Below, piece by piece: positions 25,495 through 28,933 of a DNA stretch of 64,000 bases; within the stretch, counting starts at the first letter, position 1; each line of letters opens with the position of its first letter. The stretch spans positions 91,266 through 155,265 of the forward strand of contig QCGZ01000002.1 in NCBI GenBank assembly GCA_003279705.1, read 5' to 3'. Below the pieces are notes generated by a model. The model worked only from the letters and a program-made list of their open reading frames with translations. It was not told the DNA's origin and ran no database searches. Origin of the DNA: OCS116 cluster bacterium AG-390-I16 (GTDB lineage: Bacteria > Pseudomonadota > Alphaproteobacteria > MED-G09). The translations under genes and the position numbers were made by a program.

Positions 25495-25503
25495 AATAAA
25501 AAA

Positions 25504-25529
25504 ATGCCCAGGGTTTTAAGCCTGGGCAT
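25504..25529. terminator. Bidirectional stem-loop between convergent genes
   Basis: ATGCCCAGG-gttttaag-CCTGGGCAT is a perfect 9-bp GC-rich stem. An A-run lies upstream (25495-25504). It sits between the DoxX-like (+) and TonB-dependent receptor (-) stops. Confidence 0.5.
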
Positions 25530-25558
25530 CAATCTTAAATATAAAATTCAATATTTAA

Positions 25559-27988
25559 TTAAAACTTATAGTTTAACTTCAAACCAAAATTTCTACCTGG
25601 AAGCGGAACTTCATTCTTAACGAAAGAAGAATGATTTCTCGCAACCTCATCAAGAAGATTTCTGCCAAGCAATGATAAGCTTATTTCATTTAGGTTGTTA
25701 AGAACAAAAGTTTTTCTTAAAGAAAAATCAAGCATCTCATAGGCTTCAGTCATTGTTTCCCCTTCACCTATATCATTTTGCTTCTCAACATCTTTATAAG
25801 TGAGTTTCGCTGAGAGGTTATCTTCAGAATAAGAAAGAGAAAGAATATTCCTCGCAGGTACAATTCTTGGAATATTCATACCATTTTTAAATTCACCCGT
25901 TACGGAATCTCTTCCAAGAGATAAAGTAAAATTTCCTCTATCAAAGTTGAAAACTTGACTTACTTCAATCTCATAGCCTTCTAATTCAGCATCTTTTTGA
26001 AGAAAGTTTGCTAGAATTAAACCACCATGATCATCATGATCACCATGTTCTTCATGTTCTTCATGTTCTTCTTCGGTTTCATCTTGAAGATAGATATAAT
26101 TATCAATGTTATTTTTGAAAATATTACCTCTAAAAGAGAAGTTGCTATTTTGATAATATATATTCAAATCAATATTATTAGCTTTTTCAGACTCTAGATT
26201 AGTATTGCCAACCTCAAATCGACCAGTAACAAGATGTGCTCCGTTCATAAATAATTCAACTGGAGCAGGTGCTCTTTCAACCATAGAAAGGCCTAAACTT
26301 AATGTTAAGCCATCTGTAACATCGCGAGATAAATTAACAGCAAAACTTGTTTCACTAAAATCTCTGTTGAAATACTCTATCTCTTCCTCATGTTCGTCTT
26401 CGTCATGATGTTCGTCTTCGTCATGATGTTCGTCTTCGTCATGGTGCTCTTCTTCGTCATGATGTTCGTCTTCGTCATGATGCTCTTCTTCATGAGCAAT
26501 TGAACCTTTTCTTGAAATATCATCATATCTAATACCAAAATCAAGATGGAACAAATCAAATTCTTTTGATAGATAATAACCTACAGACATTTCTTCATTA
26601 TCTGTTGGTCTCATAAATGCTTCAGCGCCTATTATTGATATTTCCTCTTCAACATAATTGATAGAAAGTTTTTGATCTGCAAAAGTATTTGAAATATCAA
26701 AGATAAATCCAAATTCTTTTGATTTATTCTCAAAATTTGTTGGCCCCTCTGCATGACCATGCTCATCATGTTCGTCTTCGTCATGATGTTCTTCTTCGTC
26801 ATGATGTTCTTCTTCGTCATGATGTTCTTCTTCAGCATGCTGTTCAGTATGAAGATAATCTGAAGATCTGAAAAAATAATTAATCTTTTTCAAAAATGAG
26901 TTATTGACCAAATATGAACCTTCAACATCAAAGATATCAGACTCTGTATTAGAAAAAATTCTTTCACCCTCATGCTCGTCTTTAGCATGATGTTCTTCTT
27001 CGTCATGATGTTCATCTTCTTCATGATGTGCTTCTTCATCATGATGCTCGTCTTCGTCATGCATACCATGATCTTCGTGACCTTCACCATGGAAAGGAAC
27101 TCCAAAAAGACTTTCAGAGTTTCTATATGAAAGGCCAAAATGCCCCCATTCTCCTGTCTTAGAAATTCCAAATCTTTGGGTGGTTGACTCAAAGTCAGAA
27201 TTCTCTAAGTACCCAAGATTTTCTTCGTCATGATGCTCGTCTTCGTCATGATGCTCGTCTTCGTCATGATGTTCCTCTTCATCATGATGTTCTTCTTCGT
27301 CATGATGTTCATCTTCCATATGAATTATTGCACCATTAGGAATATCATAATTATCGAACTGAGAGTCTTTATATGCTAAACTTACATTAAAACCACCAAA
27401 ATTGTTTTGATATGAAATACTTCCAGACTCTCCATCATTAACAGACTGGCCTTCTAGTCCAATATTCAGTTTTGCATCTTTAAAATCTTCTCTAGCAATT
27501 GTATTATCAATAATGTTAACAATACCTCCAATAGTTCCACTAGAATACAATAAAGATGATGGTCCTCTAACTATTTCAACTTGTTGAATATTATTTAAAT
27601 CTACCTCATTCATGTGATCATCGCCAATGGTTGAAACATCTCGTAAGGTTCTCCCATTGTTCATAATTCTCACTCTATTGCCTGATAAACCTCTAATGAT
27701 AGGATGACCAACGGCGGAACCAAAATCTGATGACTGGACACCAAGAAGGTTATCTAGTGACTCACCCAAGCTAAGTGTTGTATCAAAAATTGTATCATTA
27801 CCATCAACAATATGAATTGGATCATCAAGATCTGAAAGATTTGTATCTATATATGATGAAGTAACTACTATCTCATCCGTTCCACTTGAAACATCAACGG
27901 TTTCATCAGCATATAAAAATTTACTGTGTATTGTTAAAGCACCCACAAGTAAAAGTACTGTAATTAAATTTTTCAATTTAAACTCCAT
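25559..27988 (-). CDS. TonB-dependent outer-membrane receptor with five His/Asp/Glu-rich repeat inserts
   Basis: 809 aa. Signal peptide, plug domain (HPIIRGLSGNRVRIMNNG, VEIVRGPSSLLYSSGTIGGIVNII), C-terminal barrel strand GRNFGLKLNYKF. Five inserts of HHDE[DE]E repeats (listed as separate repeat features). Confidence 0.85.
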   Translation of the reverse strand: MEFKLKNLITVLLLVGALTIHSKFLYADETVDVSSGTDEIVVTSSYIDTNLSDLDDPIHIVDGNDTIFDTTLSLGESLDNLLGVQSSDFGSAVGHPIIRGLSGNRVRIMNNGRTLRDVSTIGDDHMNEVDLNNIQQVEIVRGPSSLLYSSGTIGGIVNIIDNTIAREDFKDAKLNIGLEGQSVNDGESGSISYQNNFGGFNVSLAYKDSQFDNYDIPNGAIIHMEDEHHDEEEHHDEEEHHDEDEHHDEDEHHDEENLGYLENSDFESTTQRFGISKTGEWGHFGLSYRNSESLFGVPFHGEGHEDHGMHDEDEHHDEEAHHEEDEHHDEEEHHAKDEHEGERIFSNTESDIFDVEGSYLVNNSFLKKINYFFRSSDYLHTEQHAEEEHHDEEEHHDEEEHHDEDEHDEHGHAEGPTNFENKSKEFGFIFDISNTFADQKLSINYVEEEISIIGAEAFMRPTDNEEMSVGYYLSKEFDLFHLDFGIRYDDISRKGSIAHEEEHHDEDEHHDEEEHHDEDEHHDEDEHHDEDEHEEEIEYFNRDFSETSFAVNLSRDVTDGLTLSLGLSMVERAPAPVELFMNGAHLVTGRFEVGNTNLESEKANNIDLNIYYQNSNFSFRGNIFKNNIDNYIYLQDETEEEHEEHEEHGDHDDHGGLILANFLQKDAELEGYEIEVSQVFNFDRGNFTLSLGRDSVTGEFKNGMNIPRIVPARNILSLSYSEDNLSAKLTYKDVEKQNDIGEGETMTEAYEMLDFSLRKTFVLNNLNEISLSLLGRNLLDEVARNHSSFVKNEVPLPGRNFGLKLNYKF
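26021..26083 (-). repeat. HDE-rich coding repeat block 5 (DETEEEHEEHEEHGDHDDHGG)
   Basis: Read directly by reverse-complementing 26021-26083. 21 codons, 5 His. Confidence 0.9.
26381..26497 (-). repeat. HDE-rich coding repeat block 4 (AHEEEHHDEDEHHDEEEHHDEDEHHDEDEHHDEDEHEEE)
   Basis: 39 codons, 12 His. 18-nt period (catcatgacgaagacgaa). Confidence 0.9.
26747..26851 (-). repeat. HDE-rich coding repeat block 3 (HTEQHAEEEHHDEEEHHDEEEHHDEDEHDEHGHAE)
   Basis: 35 codons, 11 His. 18-nt period. Confidence 0.9.
26963..27091 (-). repeat. HDE-rich coding repeat block 2 (HGEGHEDHGMHDEDEHHDEEAHHEEDEHHDEEEHHAKDEHEGE)
   Basis: 43 codons, 13 His. Confidence 0.9.
27221..27322 (-). repeat. HDE-rich coding repeat block 1 (HMEDEHHDEEEHHDEEEHHDEDEHHDEDEHHDEE)
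   Basis: 34 codons, 11 His. Five consecutive HHDExE hexapeptides. Confidence 0.9.
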
Positions 27989-28011: not shown

Positions 28012-28293
28012 TTAAATTTTAGGGGGAGCTCGTGAATGAAAGGTTGTATAAAATTGGGGAGTAAAATTATCTAGATTTTTAAAATTACTTAAATCAGATA
28101 AAAATAACGTCTTCGAAGGAATATCAATAATGTCTTCAAATAAATCATTGATACAAAAATGACACTCTTCTTCAGAATGATTAGTATCATATTCTTCATG
28201 GTAGTGAGTTTCTATAGAAGAAATAGATAGAAAGAAAATTCCTATTAGAATTACTAAATATTTTTTATTAAATAGATTGATAAATTTATTCAT
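28012..28293 (-). CDS. Small exported/anchored His- and Cys-rich protein
   Basis: 93 aa. N-terminal hydrophobic segment (YLVILIGIFFLSISS), then THYHEEYDTNHSEEECHFC. The start overlaps the upstream MerC-like stop by 8 nt, and the ORF ends 23 nt before the receptor start. Confidence 0.5.
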   Translation of the reverse strand: MNKFINLFNKKYLVILIGIFFLSISSIETHYHEEYDTNHSEEECHFCINDLFEDIIDIPSKTLFLSDLSNFKNLDNFTPQFYTTFHSRAPPKI

Positions 28294-28696
28294 GACAATC
28301 GCATTCTAAATGATTACAAAGTTTGTAATTTTTATAATGAGAAAATGTTATTAAAAAAGACCCTACAATTGTTAATAAAATCTCTCCAGAAATGATTTTT
28401 ATTGGTAATTCTATTAATAATGCAGAAACTAAAATTGCTAGCCCAAGTAATCCAACAAAAAATATAAAAGAATTTTTATGATTATTTAAACCAACTATTA
28501 AGGCAAAAGAACTTATAGGAACCACTAAAAATAGAAGCATGTAATGAATTAATTCACTATTTAATGTTATAGATATGAAACTAGATAGTGCGACCATAAG
28601 GGAGGGAAATAAAAGACAGTGAAATAAACAAAGCACTGAAATACCTACTGAAACTTTATCAGAAACCTTTTGTGCATCTATTAATTGTGCAAACAT
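28286..28696 (-). CDS. MerC-like inner-membrane metal-transport protein
   Basis: 136 aa, 4 TM. The first TM carries LCLFHCLLFP (C-x2-H-C), analogous to the MerC TM1 Cys pair. Cytoplasmic tail CNHLECDCHE. Family assignment from memory. Confidence 0.55.
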   Translation of the reverse strand: MFAQLIDAQKVSDKVSVGISVLCLFHCLLFPSLMVALSSFISITLNSELIHYMLLFLVVPISSFALIVGLNNHKNSFIFFVGLLGLAILVSALLIELPIKIISGEILLTIVGSFLITFSHYKNYKLCNHLECDCHE

Positions 28697-28858
28697 ATCC
28701 CACTCAGCTTTATAAAATAATATAAAATAATATTTTTAAAGTAATTTTAAGTTATTTAATATTATTTATGCTCATTTTGCCCATAACACAAGTATATAAT
28801 TGTGATTAAAACTAAACATTTAAACCTTATCATCAAAATGGTTTTTCTGTGGAAGGAA

Positions 28859-28933
28859 TGGTAGTCCCTAGGGGAATCGAACCCCTCTTTCCAGGTTGAA
28901 AACCTGGCGTCCTAACCGATAGACGAAGGGACC
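28859..28933 (-). tRNA. tRNA-Glu (anticodon UUC)
   Basis: Hand fold: GGTCCCT TC GTC TATCGGTTAGGAC GCCAGG TTTTCAA CCTGG AAAG AGGGG TTCGATT CCCCT AGGGACT A CCA. G1-U72 wobble. Close to my recollection of E. coli tRNA-Glu. Confidence 0.9.

What the first reader, a model, noticed from the sequence alone, without database searches (positions are those of the whole stretch)
28012..28696. MerC-like permease and a translationally coupled small His/Cys-rich exported protein directly upstream of the His-rich receptor
The 136-aa four-TM protein has LCLFHCLLFP in its first helix and ends in CNHLECDCHE. Its stop overlaps by 8 nt the start of a 93-aa protein. That protein has an N-terminal hydrophobic segment followed by THYHEEYDTNHSEEECHFC. 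It ends 23 nt before the receptor start. All three proteins carry soft or borderline metal ligands. Their predicted locations (inner membrane, periplasm or anchored, outer membrane) would together span the envelope. That would form a metal import route with no ABC transporter. MerC is an established Hg(II) uptake protein, but no mer genes (merR, merA, merP, merT) are present. A non-mercury role is therefore more likely.
Basis: partly seen in the sequence, partly recalled or inferred. Interest (0 to 1): 0.65.

Follow-up and report, generated by a model that had tools for sequence, protein, structure and literature searches.

The report
Metal-sensing leader peptide plus MerC-like permease
In a small-genome marine bacterium, the small His/Cys-rich protein is most likely not a metal carrier but a ribosome-stalling sensor peptide that controls an outer-membrane zinc-type receptor. 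The MerC-like membrane protein joined to it is a candidate trace-metal importer in a lineage that lacks the usual zinc importers.

Summary
Both ORFs exist as described. The 136-aa protein is a Pfam MerC member (81.9 bits). The 93-aa ORF overlaps its stop by 8 nt.

The interpretation changes for the small protein. It has an export signal, an invariant His/CxxC site, a fixed 40-42-residue spacer and an invariant C-terminal R(A/G)PP-x-x-stop. That is the architecture of the CruR/CutF nascent-chain metal sensors, built on the RAPP ribosome-arrest motif. Every homologue whose downstream DNA I read (window, L001, 11 PS1 genomes, 4 distant metagenome contexts) is followed by a ZnuD-like TonB-dependent receptor. 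The RAPP codons and stop region are predicted to pair with the receptor's Shine-Dalgarno sequence. The family is not recognised by Pfam DUF2946.

The MerC-like gene is an accessory. It is fused to the module only in part of one PS1-clade genus. It also lies downstream of a similar leader and receptor in one OM43 genome. This MerC subfamily (TM1 CxxHC, C-terminal CxHxDCDCH) was found only in PS1, OM43 and SAR86 genomes. None of the genomes tested has ZnuA. The PS1 genomes tested also lack ZIP and Zur.

Best reading: a Zur-independent, translationally gated trace-metal (probably zinc) uptake operon. It is a new variant of known kinds. The metal and the MerC-like transport role are inferred, not shown.

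The parts
28859..28933 (-). tRNA-Glu(UUC) immediately upstream, probable co-transcription partner
   Evidence: ARAGORN. In relatives L053, L055 and L056 its 3' end lies only about 27 nt before the MerC-like ATG. No terminator-like or promoter-like site lies between it and the operon on this strand.
28697..28858 (-). AT-rich spacer between tRNA-Glu and the MerC-like gene, with a 10-bp tandem repeat
   Evidence: Sequence. The spacer is absent or much shorter in three of the four relatives aligned (L053, L055, L056) and of similar length but different sequence in L054. It is therefore not a conserved operator region.
28286..28696 (-). MerC-family four-helix inner-membrane protein, type 1: TM1 C23-x2-H26-C27...P31; E48/H51; H73; E105; H120; cytoplasmic tail C127-x-H-x2-C132-x-C134-H135
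   Evidence: Pfam PF03203 scores 81.9 bits. Conservation is shown in alignments A6 and A8. The AF2 model has helices 3-37, 47-73, 76-94 and 104-129.
28286..28293 (-). 8-nt overlap ATGAATAA: the leader start lies inside the MerC-like stop region, with no SD of its own (translational coupling)
   Evidence: The overlap is conserved in L006, L008, L009 and L010.
28012..28293 (-). 93-aa leader/sensor ORF (CruR/CutF-like architecture)
28216..28260 (-). Hydrophobic export signal (res 12-26, after K10 K11)
   Evidence: Read directly from the sequence. Conserved in all 25 aligned homologues. No signal-peptide predictor was available.
28153..28206 (-). Metal-ligand segment H30-x-H32...H39...C44-H-F-C47
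   Evidence: H32, C44 and C47 are invariant across the whole family. H30 and H39 are invariant among close relatives only.
28021..28032 (-). R88-A-P-P91 ribosome-arrest core, followed by K-I-stop
   Evidence: R, P and P are invariant, and the second residue is A or G only. It is the only RAPP/RGPP in this genome. The motif's function is described in PMC10951233 and PMC12992588.
27974..28035 (-). Predicted hairpin: CUCC of the Ala-Pro codons plus AAAAUUUAAAUU (K-I-stop) pair with the region up to and including the receptor SD GGAG (27983-27986); TTG start at 27974-27976
   Evidence: Folds. P(SD unpaired) is 0.00-0.14 in 12 loci. RNAalifold found no consensus structure.
25559..27976 (-). ZnuD-like TonB-dependent receptor with five HHDEEE-type loop inserts
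   Evidence: Plug and barrel domains. Best NCBIfam hit is ZnuD at 200 bits against a cut-off of 950. Best PDB hit is ZnuD 4RDR at E=1e-40, with the plug D-H and the NGxH His conserved.
25503..25530 (-). Intrinsic terminator closing the transcription unit
   Evidence: 10-bp stem with 6 GC pairs followed by a T-run, 29 nt after the receptor stop.

Best explanation
The locus is a trace-metal (most likely Zn2+) uptake operon: (tRNA-Glu)-merC-like-leader-receptor-terminator. Its receptor appears to be gated by a nascent-peptide sensor during translation, not by a Zur-type repressor.

Proposed mechanism, all steps inferred unless marked:
1. The 93-aa ORF is translated by coupling to the MerC-like gene.
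2. Its N-terminal signal takes the chain into the Sec channel. Its His/CxxC segment lies 40-42 residues before the arrest site. It therefore sits at the periplasmic face when the ribosome reaches R-A-P (P site) and Pro (A site), where RAPP/RGPP sequences arrest peptide-bond formation. The arrest chemistry is shown for other RAPP peptides, not for this one.
3. While the ribosome is arrested, it covers the 5' arm of a hairpin (Ala-Pro-Pro-Lys-Ile-stop codons). That arm otherwise pairs with the receptor's Shine-Dalgarno sequence, so the receptor is translated.
4. When the metal is plentiful, binding to the exposed His/Cys site helps release the arrest, as reported for CruR with copper. The ribosome terminates, the hairpin re-forms, and receptor synthesis drops.

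The MerC-like protein is a four-helix inner-membrane protein. Conserved ligands sit at the periplasmic mouth (E48, H51, E105), inside TM1 (C23, H26, C27) and on the cytoplasmic side (H73, H120, C127, C132, C134, H135). I propose it carries the metal from periplasm to cytoplasm, as MerC does for Hg(II). It would serve a lineage in which I found no ZnuA-type ABC binding protein, ZIP importer or Zur.
For: Leader identity:
- The family has only 29 representatives in 1.8 billion clusters. All have an export signal, xH, ECxFC, a 40-42-aa spacer and SR(A/G)PP-x-x-stop.
- Variation at position 2 is limited to A or G. These are the two cores reported as the most robust arrest sequences, typically near the C-terminus of small secreted proteins (PMC12992588). 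Arrest geometry is described in PMC10951233.
- It is the only RAPP/RGPP in this genome.
- The same architecture and logic are described for CruR (CXXC + RAPP before the TonB-dependent transporter BfrG; PMC9426467). They are also described for CutF (a stem-loop shielding the downstream RBS; TonB-like proteins are the second most frequent neighbour; His/Cys site variants; PMC9973294).

Linkage to the receptor:
- Every homologue whose downstream DNA I read is followed by an orthologous receptor: the window, L001, 11 PS1 genomes, and P0136, P0133, P0124 and P0118 in unrelated contexts. The three complete receptors in those unrelated contexts are 26-45% identical to the window's; the P0124 contig holds only a 208-aa fragment.

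RNA:
- The SD is predicted to be paired in all 12 PS1 loci, with P(unpaired) of 0.00-0.14. That is below 95% or more of upstream-shuffled controls in 8 of 12 loci.
- The same CUCC-GGAG closure appears in the distant locus L051.

Regulatory context:
- PS1 genomes hold only Fur/Mur and Irr, with no Zur.
- No promoter-like site lies before the operon. In relatives tRNA-Glu lies about 27 nt upstream. A clean terminator follows the receptor.

Metal:
- The receptor's best structural relative is ZnuD, and three of ZnuD's four Zn ligands are conserved.

MerC-like:
- Pfam MerC. Cys/His/Glu residues are invariant across PS1, OM43 and SAR86 at 38-87% identity.
- The stop/start overlap with the leader is conserved.
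- One OM43 genome has leader-receptor-MerC-like on one strand.
- Presence is associated with the leader within the family: 8 genomes have both, 6 the leader only, 1 MerC only, 10 neither. Fisher p=0.033, uncorrected for phylogeny.
- ZnuA is absent from all 13 PS1, OM43 and SAR86 genomes tested. ZIP is absent from the 6 tested.
Against: - No experiment or expression data.
- The leader family is not detected by Pfam DUF2946. Profile-profile comparison with 14 genuine DUF2946 proteins gives only 15% probability, over the CxxC alone. Homology to CruR is therefore unproven and the similarity could be convergent.
- Spacing is 40-42 residues, against 44-48 in DUF2946.
- The hairpin has no covariation support. 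RNAalifold finds no consensus because the register differs between RAPP and RGPP loci. In an AT-rich mRNA, GGAG will tend to pair with any Pro-Pro codons. With the stalled-ribosome footprint masked, the SD becomes clearly freer in only 7 of 12 loci. In the window it goes only from 0.00 to 0.07.
- The direction of the metal response (release or enhancement of arrest) differs between CruR and CutF and cannot be read from sequence.
- The metal is not established. CxxC sensors described so far respond to copper, and His-rich motifs also suit Ni or Co.
- MerC-like is dispensable for the module. G003 (96% complete) has leader and receptor but no MerC-like gene. In genus g2, SAR86 and other lineages the MerC-like gene sits in unrelated contexts.
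- Three PS1 genomes that lack the type-1 MerC-like gene also lack ZnuA, so another importer must exist.
- Several genomes are incomplete single-cell or MAG assemblies.
Confidence: 0.6

Rival explanations
1. One reading: the 93-aa protein is a stable periplasmic or membrane-anchored metallochaperone. It passes the metal from the outer-membrane receptor to the MerC-like permease, and the three proteins form an envelope-spanning relay.
For: The protein has an export signal and an invariant His/CxxC site. It is always adjacent to the receptor. A released leader could in principle also bind metal in the periplasm, so the two roles are not exclusive.
Against: The most conserved element is the C-terminal SR(A/G)PP-x-x-stop with fixed spacing to CxxC. 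A chaperone does not need this, and a ribosome-arrest sensor does (PMC12992588). The region between CxxC and RAPP is poorly conserved. In most genomes with the small protein no MerC-like gene is adjacent, and G003 has none at all. The product of the characterised analogue bp2923 was not detected although the two downstream proteins were (PMC9426467).
Confidence: 0.15
2. The module is a copper system, as for CruR/BfrG and CutF/CutO. The CxxC leader would sense Cu(I)/Cu(II), the receptor would import copper, and the MerC-like protein would move copper across the inner membrane.
For: All characterised CxxC + RAPP-type leaders respond to copper (PMC9426467, PMC9973294). MerC-type Cys ligands favour soft metals. 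No HMA-motif copper chaperone or P1B-ATPase signature was seen in the 77%-complete assembly.
Against: The receptor is ZnuD-like, with the ZnuD plug D-H and loop His conserved. It has no Cys and no OprC-type Cys/Met site. The leader and the receptor loops are rich in His/Asp/Glu, which are borderline or hard ligands. No copper genes (copC, PCuAC, sco, multicopper oxidase) are adjacent. Ozturk et al. note that CutF-like proteins are not all copper-specific.
Confidence: 0.2
3. The MerC-like gene is functionally unrelated to the leader-receptor module. It would be a detoxification importer, or a thiol/redox membrane protein, that landed next to the module in one genus.
For: It is adjacent only in five genus-g1 genomes. 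Elsewhere it lies beside GFA/glmS, GMC oxidoreductase or SMR genes. A second MerC-like type lies beside gloB-like hydrolases. The locus abuts a tRNA gene, a common insertion point.
Against: The 8-nt stop/start overlap is conserved at 57-87% protein identity, and the leader has no SD of its own. An independent leader-receptor-MerC-like arrangement exists in an OM43 betaproteobacterium. Co-presence within the family gives p=0.033, uncorrected for phylogeny.
Confidence: 0.25

Closest known systems
CruR (Bp2923, Pfam DUF2946) of Bordetella pertussis, upstream ORF of the bp2923-bfrG-bp2921 operon (Roy et al. 2022, PMC9426467)
   Same: A small exported protein with a CXXC metal site and a C-terminal RAPP 2-3 residues before the stop. 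The motifs have fixed spacing. It lies directly upstream of a TonB-dependent transporter. The logic is an uptake system shut off when the metal is plentiful.
   Different: There is no detectable sequence homology (Pfam HMM and hhalign both negative). Spacing is 40-42 residues, not about 45. The intergenic gap is 35 nt, not 162 nt, so SD masking is more likely than Rho-dependent termination. There is an extra His cluster. In the window it is not the first gene but is coupled to a MerC-like gene. No PepSY partner is present. The receptor is ZnuD-like, which points to zinc.
CutF of Rhodobacter capsulatus and the rule-defined 'CutF-like' proteins (Ozturk et al. 2023, PMC9973294)
   Same: Under 150 aa, with a Sec signal, a Cys/His metal motif and a C-terminal Pro-rich stalling motif. 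The intergenic region is short, with a stem-loop shielding the downstream ribosome-binding site. TonB-type proteins are frequent neighbours. Not all members are copper-specific.
   Different: CutF switches a detoxifying oxidase on with copper. Here an uptake receptor should be switched off by its metal, so the sign of the response must be opposite, as in CruR. I could not determine whether this family is in their list of 5,334 proteins.
RAPP/RGPP arrest peptides ApdA, ApdP, ApcA and SecM (PMC7897499, PMC10951233, PMC12992588)
   Same: The same four-residue arrest core near the C-terminus of a small secreted protein, with only the RAPP and RGPP variants present.
   Different: Those peptides monitor the Sec/YidC machinery. 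Here a conserved metal-ligand segment and a metal receptor gene suggest that a metal is monitored.
MerC of Tn21-type mer operons (Pfam PF03203)
   Same: A Pfam family member with four transmembrane helices, a Cys pair in helix 1 followed by Pro, and a Cys pair in the cytoplasmic tail. It is an importer-type membrane protein for thiophilic metals.
   Different: No merR/T/P/A genes are present. Helix 1 carries C-x2-H-C, not C-x2-C. Additional His/Glu residues are invariant. The tail is CxHxDCDCH. Distribution is restricted to streamlined marine plankton. The context is an uptake receptor, not a reductase.
ZnuD of Neisseria meningitidis (PDB 4RDR; Calmettes et al. 2015, PMC4557270)
   Same: It is the best sequence relative of the downstream receptor. 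The plug Asp-His and the loop His of the buried Zn site are conserved. Surface loops are His/Asp/Glu-rich.
   Different: The score is only 200 bits against the NCBIfam equivalog cut-off of 950. There are five expanded His-rich loops. ZnuD is Zur-regulated and works with ZnuABC, and neither was found here.

Membership tests
MerC (Pfam PF03203) | Profile HMM score above the gathering threshold over the full domain | tested here: met
   81.9 bits against 27.6, covering profile positions 1-108 of 108.
MerC (Pfam PF03203) | Four transmembrane helices | tested here: met
   AF2 model with pLDDT 79.9 and helices 3-37, 47-73, 76-94 and 104-129.
MerC (Pfam PF03203) | Cys pair in helix 1 (C-x-x-C-F-P in Tn21 MerC, recalled from memory) | tested here: inconclusive
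   The window protein has C23-L-F-H26-C27-L-L-F-P31, a C-x3-C with an invariant His. I did not align the canonical sequence here.
MerC (Pfam PF03203) | mer operon context (merR, merT/P, merA) | tested here: not met
   The neighbours are tRNA-Glu, recJ, the leader and the receptor. The assembly has no HMA motif or MerA-like reductase.
MerC (Pfam PF03203) | Hg(II) import activity | not testable with these tools
   Needs an uptake assay.
CruR / DUF2946 (Pfam PF11162) | Profile HMM match | tested here: not met
   No hit at E<=10 for 25 family members. No hit in the six-frame search of G000 and G002, while 33 of 151 genomes of the class have hits. hhalign against 14 genuine members gives 15% probability.
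CruR / DUF2946 (Pfam PF11162) | N-terminal export signal | tested here: met
   K10-K11 followed by a 15-residue hydrophobic stretch, present in all homologues. Judged by inspection only.
CruR / DUF2946 (Pfam PF11162) | Conserved CXXC | tested here: met
   C44 and C47 are invariant in 25 sequences down to 22% identity.
CruR / DUF2946 (Pfam PF11162) | C-terminal RAPP a few residues before the stop | tested here: met
   R88, P90 and P91 are invariant and the second residue is A or G. Twenty-two of the 25 aligned members have two residues after the motif; the other three have one or four.
CruR / DUF2946 (Pfam PF11162) | CXXC-RAPP spacing of about 45 residues, within one or two | tested here: not met
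   40-42 residues here, tightly conserved. By the same count, 14 DUF2946 proteins have 44-48.
CruR / DUF2946 (Pfam PF11162) | First gene of an operon, followed by a TonB-dependent transporter after a long intergenic region (Rho-dependent control) | tested here: inconclusive
   The ORF is always followed by a receptor. It is first in genus g2, where a promoter-like TTGACT-17-TACTTA precedes it. In the window it is second. The gap is 35-38 nt, except 91 nt with a terminator-like hairpin in L046.
CutF-like (rules of Ozturk et al. 2023) | [quoted passage not shown] | tested here: met
   93 aa, PP at residues 90-91 of 93, hydrophobic N-terminus, receptor 35 nt downstream.
CutF-like (rules of Ozturk et al. 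2023) | Stem-loop shielding the downstream RBS | tested here: inconclusive
   Predicted in each of 12 loci and in L051. There is no consensus structure or covariation.
ZnuD-type zinc receptor (NCBIfam NF038289) | Score above the equivalog cut-off | tested here: not met
   200 bits against 950. ZnuD is nevertheless the best PDB relative, at E=1e-40.
ZnuD-type zinc receptor (NCBIfam NF038289) | Buried Zn site Asp99, His100, Glu340, His499 | tested here: inconclusive
   The plug D-H and the loop His align (GDDH; NGAH). Glu340 falls in an unaligned stretch.

The most novel reading that the evidence does not exclude
A distinct MerC subfamily (TM1 CxxHC, cytoplasmic CxHxDCDCH tail) may be the missing inner-membrane importer of zinc, or of another scarce trace metal, in abundant streamlined marine bacteria (PS1, OM43, SAR86) that have no ZnuABC or ZIP. 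In PS1 it would be wired by translational coupling to a Zur-independent ribosome-arrest sensor that meters the outer-membrane receptor. Trace-metal homeostasis would then run without a dedicated transcription factor.
Probability: 0.3. Interest if true: 0.7.

Novelty: new variant of a known kind. Interest (0 to 1): 0.55.

Why it matters
CruR/CutF-type nascent-chain metal sensors were described only in 2022-2023, and only for copper. This locus points to a Pfam-invisible subfamily that probably gates a zinc-type receptor by masking its ribosome-binding site. It occurs in genomes that have no Zur. That would be one way for genome-streamlined ocean bacteria to regulate trace-metal uptake with a 93-codon cis element in place of a repressor.

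The MerC-like partner gives a concrete, easily tested candidate for how PS1, OM43 and SAR86 cells move zinc or similar metals across the inner membrane without ZnuABC or ZIP. It would also be the first nutritional role for a family known only from mercury resistance. Both claims can be tested with standard reporter and complementation assays in laboratory strains.

Tried and rejected
- Pfam and NCBIfam scans of the 93-aa protein and of 24 homologues gave no family.
- Profile-profile comparison with DUF2946 gave 15% probability. I therefore did not file the protein as a DUF2946 member.
- RNAalifold on 13 junctions gave no consensus structure. The hairpin rests on single-sequence folds only.
- The stalled-ribosome masking simulation gave a mixed result: the SD was freed in 7 of 12 loci and barely at all in the window.
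- Foldseek of the MerC-like model against the PDB returned only generic helical bundles at E>0.7.
- A literature search for a zinc or nutritional role of MerC-like proteins found nothing relevant.
- I looked for a conserved operator upstream of the MerC-like gene. The window's 162-nt spacer sequence, with its 10-bp repeat, is not shared by the four relatives aligned, so I rejected it as a regulatory site.
- Nickel hypothesis: Ni-SOD genes lie near the unlinked MerC-like gene in two g2 genomes (L040, L041) but not in a third (L039). No sodN was found in this assembly. I left this as a minor possibility.
- I considered testing MerC against ZnuA anticorrelation across the class. Only 6 of 151 genomes have MerC above the cut-off, so I tested chosen genomes instead.
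- The first search for related loci attempt, with a broad alignment, failed for lack of a conserved block.
Full report
**1. Observation**

On the minus strand, a 136-aa ORF (28286..28696) and a 93-aa ORF (28012..28293) overlap by 8 nt (ATGAATAA). They precede an 809-aa ORF (25559..27988). The quoted peptide strings are all present.

- The 136-aa protein matches Pfam MerC over the whole profile, at 81.9 bits against a cut-off of 27.6. It is the only MerC hit in the 1.12-Mb, 77%-complete assembly.
- The 809-aa protein has Plug and barrel domains. Its best NCBIfam match is ZnuD at 200 bits, far below the 950-bit equivalog cut-off.
- The 93-aa protein matches no Pfam or NCBIfam model.
- A tRNA-Glu lies directly upstream at 28859-28933. 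Beyond it is the alphaproteobacterial recJ-glpX-hom string. Related contigs are labelled PS1 clade.

One correction. Eleven orthologous junctions show the receptor starting at MKNL..., with GGAG 6-7 nt upstream. In the window the likely start is therefore TTG at 27976, with the SD at 27983-27986. The gap to the small ORF is 35 nt, not 23.

**2. The small protein is a leader-type sensor, not obviously a carrier**

Close homologues (63-94% identity) keep H30, H32, H39, C44, H45, C47 and the C-terminal RAPP. A profile search of 1.8 billion cluster representatives found only 29 relatives. Six-frame searches of related genomes added more, down to 30% identity.

Across all of them the conserved parts are:
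- a basic-then-hydrophobic N-terminus
- a His (H32)
- E-C-x-F-C
- a poorly conserved 40-42-residue spacer
- S-R-(A/G)-P-P followed by two residues and the stop (in 22 of the 25 aligned members; three have one or four residues)

Invariant columns are H32, C44, C47, R88, P90 and P91. H30 and H39 are invariant only among close relatives.

This is the architecture of CruR (Bp2923) of Bordetella pertussis. CruR is an exported upstream ORF whose CXXC senses copper and whose C-terminal RAPP arrests the ribosome. It controls the downstream TonB-dependent transporter BfrG (PMC9426467). It is also the architecture of CutF of Rhodobacter capsulatus. There, stalling opens a stem-loop that shields the next gene's ribosome-binding site. 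For CutF-like proteins, TonB-type neighbours are frequent and His- or Cys-based sites suggest different metals (PMC9973294).

[quoted passage not shown] RAPP and RGPP are reported as the two most robust cores. They are depleted from proteomes and enriched at the C-termini of small secreted proteins (PMC12992588). These two variants are exactly the ones found in this family. The leader's RAPP is the only RAPP/RGPP in the 1105 ORFs of this genome.

**3. Membership versus resemblance**

The Pfam DUF2946 model does not detect the protein, any of 24 homologues, or the six-frame translation of G000 or G002. It does detect 33 of 151 genomes of the class. hhalign against 14 genuine DUF2946 proteins gives 15% probability, aligned over the CxxC alone. 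Spacing is 40-42 residues, against 44-48 in DUF2946. I therefore describe the protein as working like CruR/CutF. It meets the rule-based CutF-like criteria but is not a demonstrated DUF2946 member. An OM43 leader, described below, has weak similarity to typical ...ARAPP proteins of other Methylophilaceae.

**4. What is conserved with what**

Leader plus receptor is the unit.
- Leader and receptor are adjacent in the window, in the close Tara contig L001 and in 11 related PS1 genomes whose junction I read. Gaps are 35-38 nt. A twelfth locus, L011, ends at its contig edge.
- In four distant metagenome homologues in unrelated neighbourhoods, a Plug/barrel receptor follows at 39-91 nt.
- The three complete receptors in those distant contexts are 26-45% identical to the window's.

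The MerC-like gene is directly upstream, always with the 8-nt overlap, only in five genomes of genus g1.
- In G003 (same genus, 96% complete) and in genus g2 the leader and receptor stand without it.
- In g2 a promoter-like TTGACT-17-TACTTA ends 6 nt before the leader ATG, which suggests a leaderless transcript.
- G003 has no MerC-like gene at all. Several g2 genomes carry a 40-44% identical copy elsewhere, next to a GFA-family gene.

A motif scan of species-representative genomes found the type-1 MerC-like protein only in PS1, OM43/Methylophilaceae and SAR86. In SAR86 its neighbours are unrelated. In one OM43 genome (L058) the order is different. A 103-aa exported His-rich CEEC protein is followed after 49 nt by a ZnuD-like receptor. 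About 540 nt further on the same strand lies the MerC-like gene. A second OM43 MAG (L071) has a degraded version of the same arrangement.

Within the PS1 family, 8 genomes have both leader and type-1 MerC-like, 6 the leader only, 1 MerC only and 10 neither. Fisher p=0.033, not corrected for phylogeny. The link between MerC-like and the module is therefore real but facultative.

**5. RNA**

In single-sequence folds the receptor's GGAG pairs with CUCC, which is formed by the Ala-Pro or Pro-Pro codons of R(A/G)PP. An inner AU stem forms between AAAAUUUAAAUU (Lys-Ile-stop) and the segment just 5' of the SD. For the window, MFE is -10.7 kcal/mol and z=-2.06.

- P(SD unpaired) is 0.00-0.14 in 12 loci. 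It is lower than in 95% or more of upstream-shuffled controls in 8 of them.
- The distant L051 junction closes the same way.
- L046 instead has a 91-nt gap with a terminator-like hairpin.
- A ribosome arrested with Pro90 in the P site would cover the 5' arm.

Caveats:
- There is no covariation.
- Masking the ribosome footprint frees the SD clearly in only 7 of 12 loci.
- Pro-Pro codons are the natural partner for GGAG in AT-rich RNA.

**6. Transcription and regulators**

There is no promoter-like site between tRNA-Glu and the MerC-like gene, and no terminator after the tRNA. A clean terminator at 25503-25530 follows the receptor.

In three of the four relatives aligned, the tRNA 3' end is about 27 nt from the MerC-like ATG. 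The window's 162-nt spacer sequence, with its repeat, is not shared by any of the four. Read-through from the tRNA promoter is plausible.

PS1 genomes have two Fur-family genes. Their neighbours (rimI/miaB and fabA) mark them as Fur/Mur and Irr. No Zur-like paralogue was seen. Control at the level of translation would fit this.

**7. Which metal, and the role of MerC-like**

ZnuD is the receptor's best solved relative, at E=1e-40. ZnuD's buried Zn site is Asp99, His100, Glu340 and His499 (PMC4557270). The plug D-H (GDDH) and the loop His (NGAH) align, while Glu340 lies in an unaligned stretch. The receptor has no Cys.

- ZnuA is absent from seven PS1 genomes, two OM43 genomes and four SAR86 genomes.
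- ZIP is absent from the six genomes tested.
- Each PS1 genome carries 18-24 receptors.

The MerC-like protein models as four helices with pLDDT 79.9. From the positive-inside pattern I infer that both termini are cytoplasmic. On that topology E48, H51 and E105 sit at the periplasmic mouth and C23, H26 and C27 in helix 1. H73, H120 and the Cys/His tail would be cytoplasmic. This suggests a ligand relay for a borderline or soft cation.

I favour zinc. Copper (the metal of the known CxxC leaders), nickel and cobalt are not excluded. Three PS1 genomes that lack the type-1 MerC-like gene also lack ZnuA, so this protein cannot be the only route.

**8. Verdict**

- The 'exported His/Cys protein' is best read as a new, Pfam-invisible subfamily of CruR/CutF-like arrest-peptide sensors gating a ZnuD-like receptor.
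- The MerC-like protein is a distinct marine subfamily and a candidate nutritional metal importer, physically coupled to the module in this genus.

An earlier agent working on the receptor reached the same leader-peptide reading. I re-derived it independently but do not count it as evidence.

Noticed in passing
G000 contig C3:28696-31137 (outside the window); L057:181-552; L071:4740-4937: A 126-aa membrane protein with no Pfam family and a His-rich tail (...HVVIGDHEDIEKDLKSHHHKD) lies 21 nt downstream of another receptor in this genome. It is 66% identical to an OM43 protein encoded just upstream of the OM43 MerC-like gene. It may be another small inner-membrane partner of metal receptors shared across classes.
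   Followed up: partly
L042:4962-5321, L043:5013-5369, L044:4901-5272, L045:4951-5307: A second MerC-like type (118-123 aa) keeps the TM1 CxxHC but lacks the C-terminal Cys cluster. In PS1 genera g2 and g3 it sits next to gloB-like metallo-beta-lactamase-fold hydrolases.
   Followed up: partly
L040:7301-9920, L041:478-3097: In two PS1 g2 genomes a Ni-superoxide dismutase pair (sodN with HCDIPC, plus the sodX peptidase) lies next to a TonB-dependent barrel gene, a few genes from the unlinked type-1 MerC-like gene. This hints at a nickel requirement. No sodN was found in this window's assembly.
   Followed up: partly
window 28697-28933; L006:4785-5384: Many database entries call the MerC-like protein at 199 or 172 aa. 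The extra N-terminus is a translation through the tRNA-Glu gene (..RTPGFQPGKRGS..) and is a gene-calling artefact.
   Followed up: yes
L014-L018, 40 nt before the leader ATG: In genus g2 a conserved TTGACT-17 nt-TACTTA ends 6 nt before the leader start codon, with no SD. This suggests a leaderless mRNA for the sensor ORF.
   Followed up: no
L046:6300-6392: A distant leader homologue (P0136) has a 91-nt gap with a strong hairpin followed by a U-rich tract before its receptor. It may be a transcription-attenuation variant of the same switch.
   Followed up: no
L001:10851-11786; L006:990-1943; L007:1073-2008: In close relatives a secreted metallo-beta-lactamase-fold protein (311-317 aa) follows the receptor. 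It is absent from the window, where a DoxX/MauE-like gene follows on the other strand.
   Followed up: no
whole assembly G000: No GMxCxxC heavy-metal-associated motif occurs anywhere in the 77%-complete genome, so no CopZ, CopA or MerP-type domain was seen. PS1 genomes carry 18-24 TonB-dependent receptors in 1.3-1.4 Mb.
   Followed up: partly
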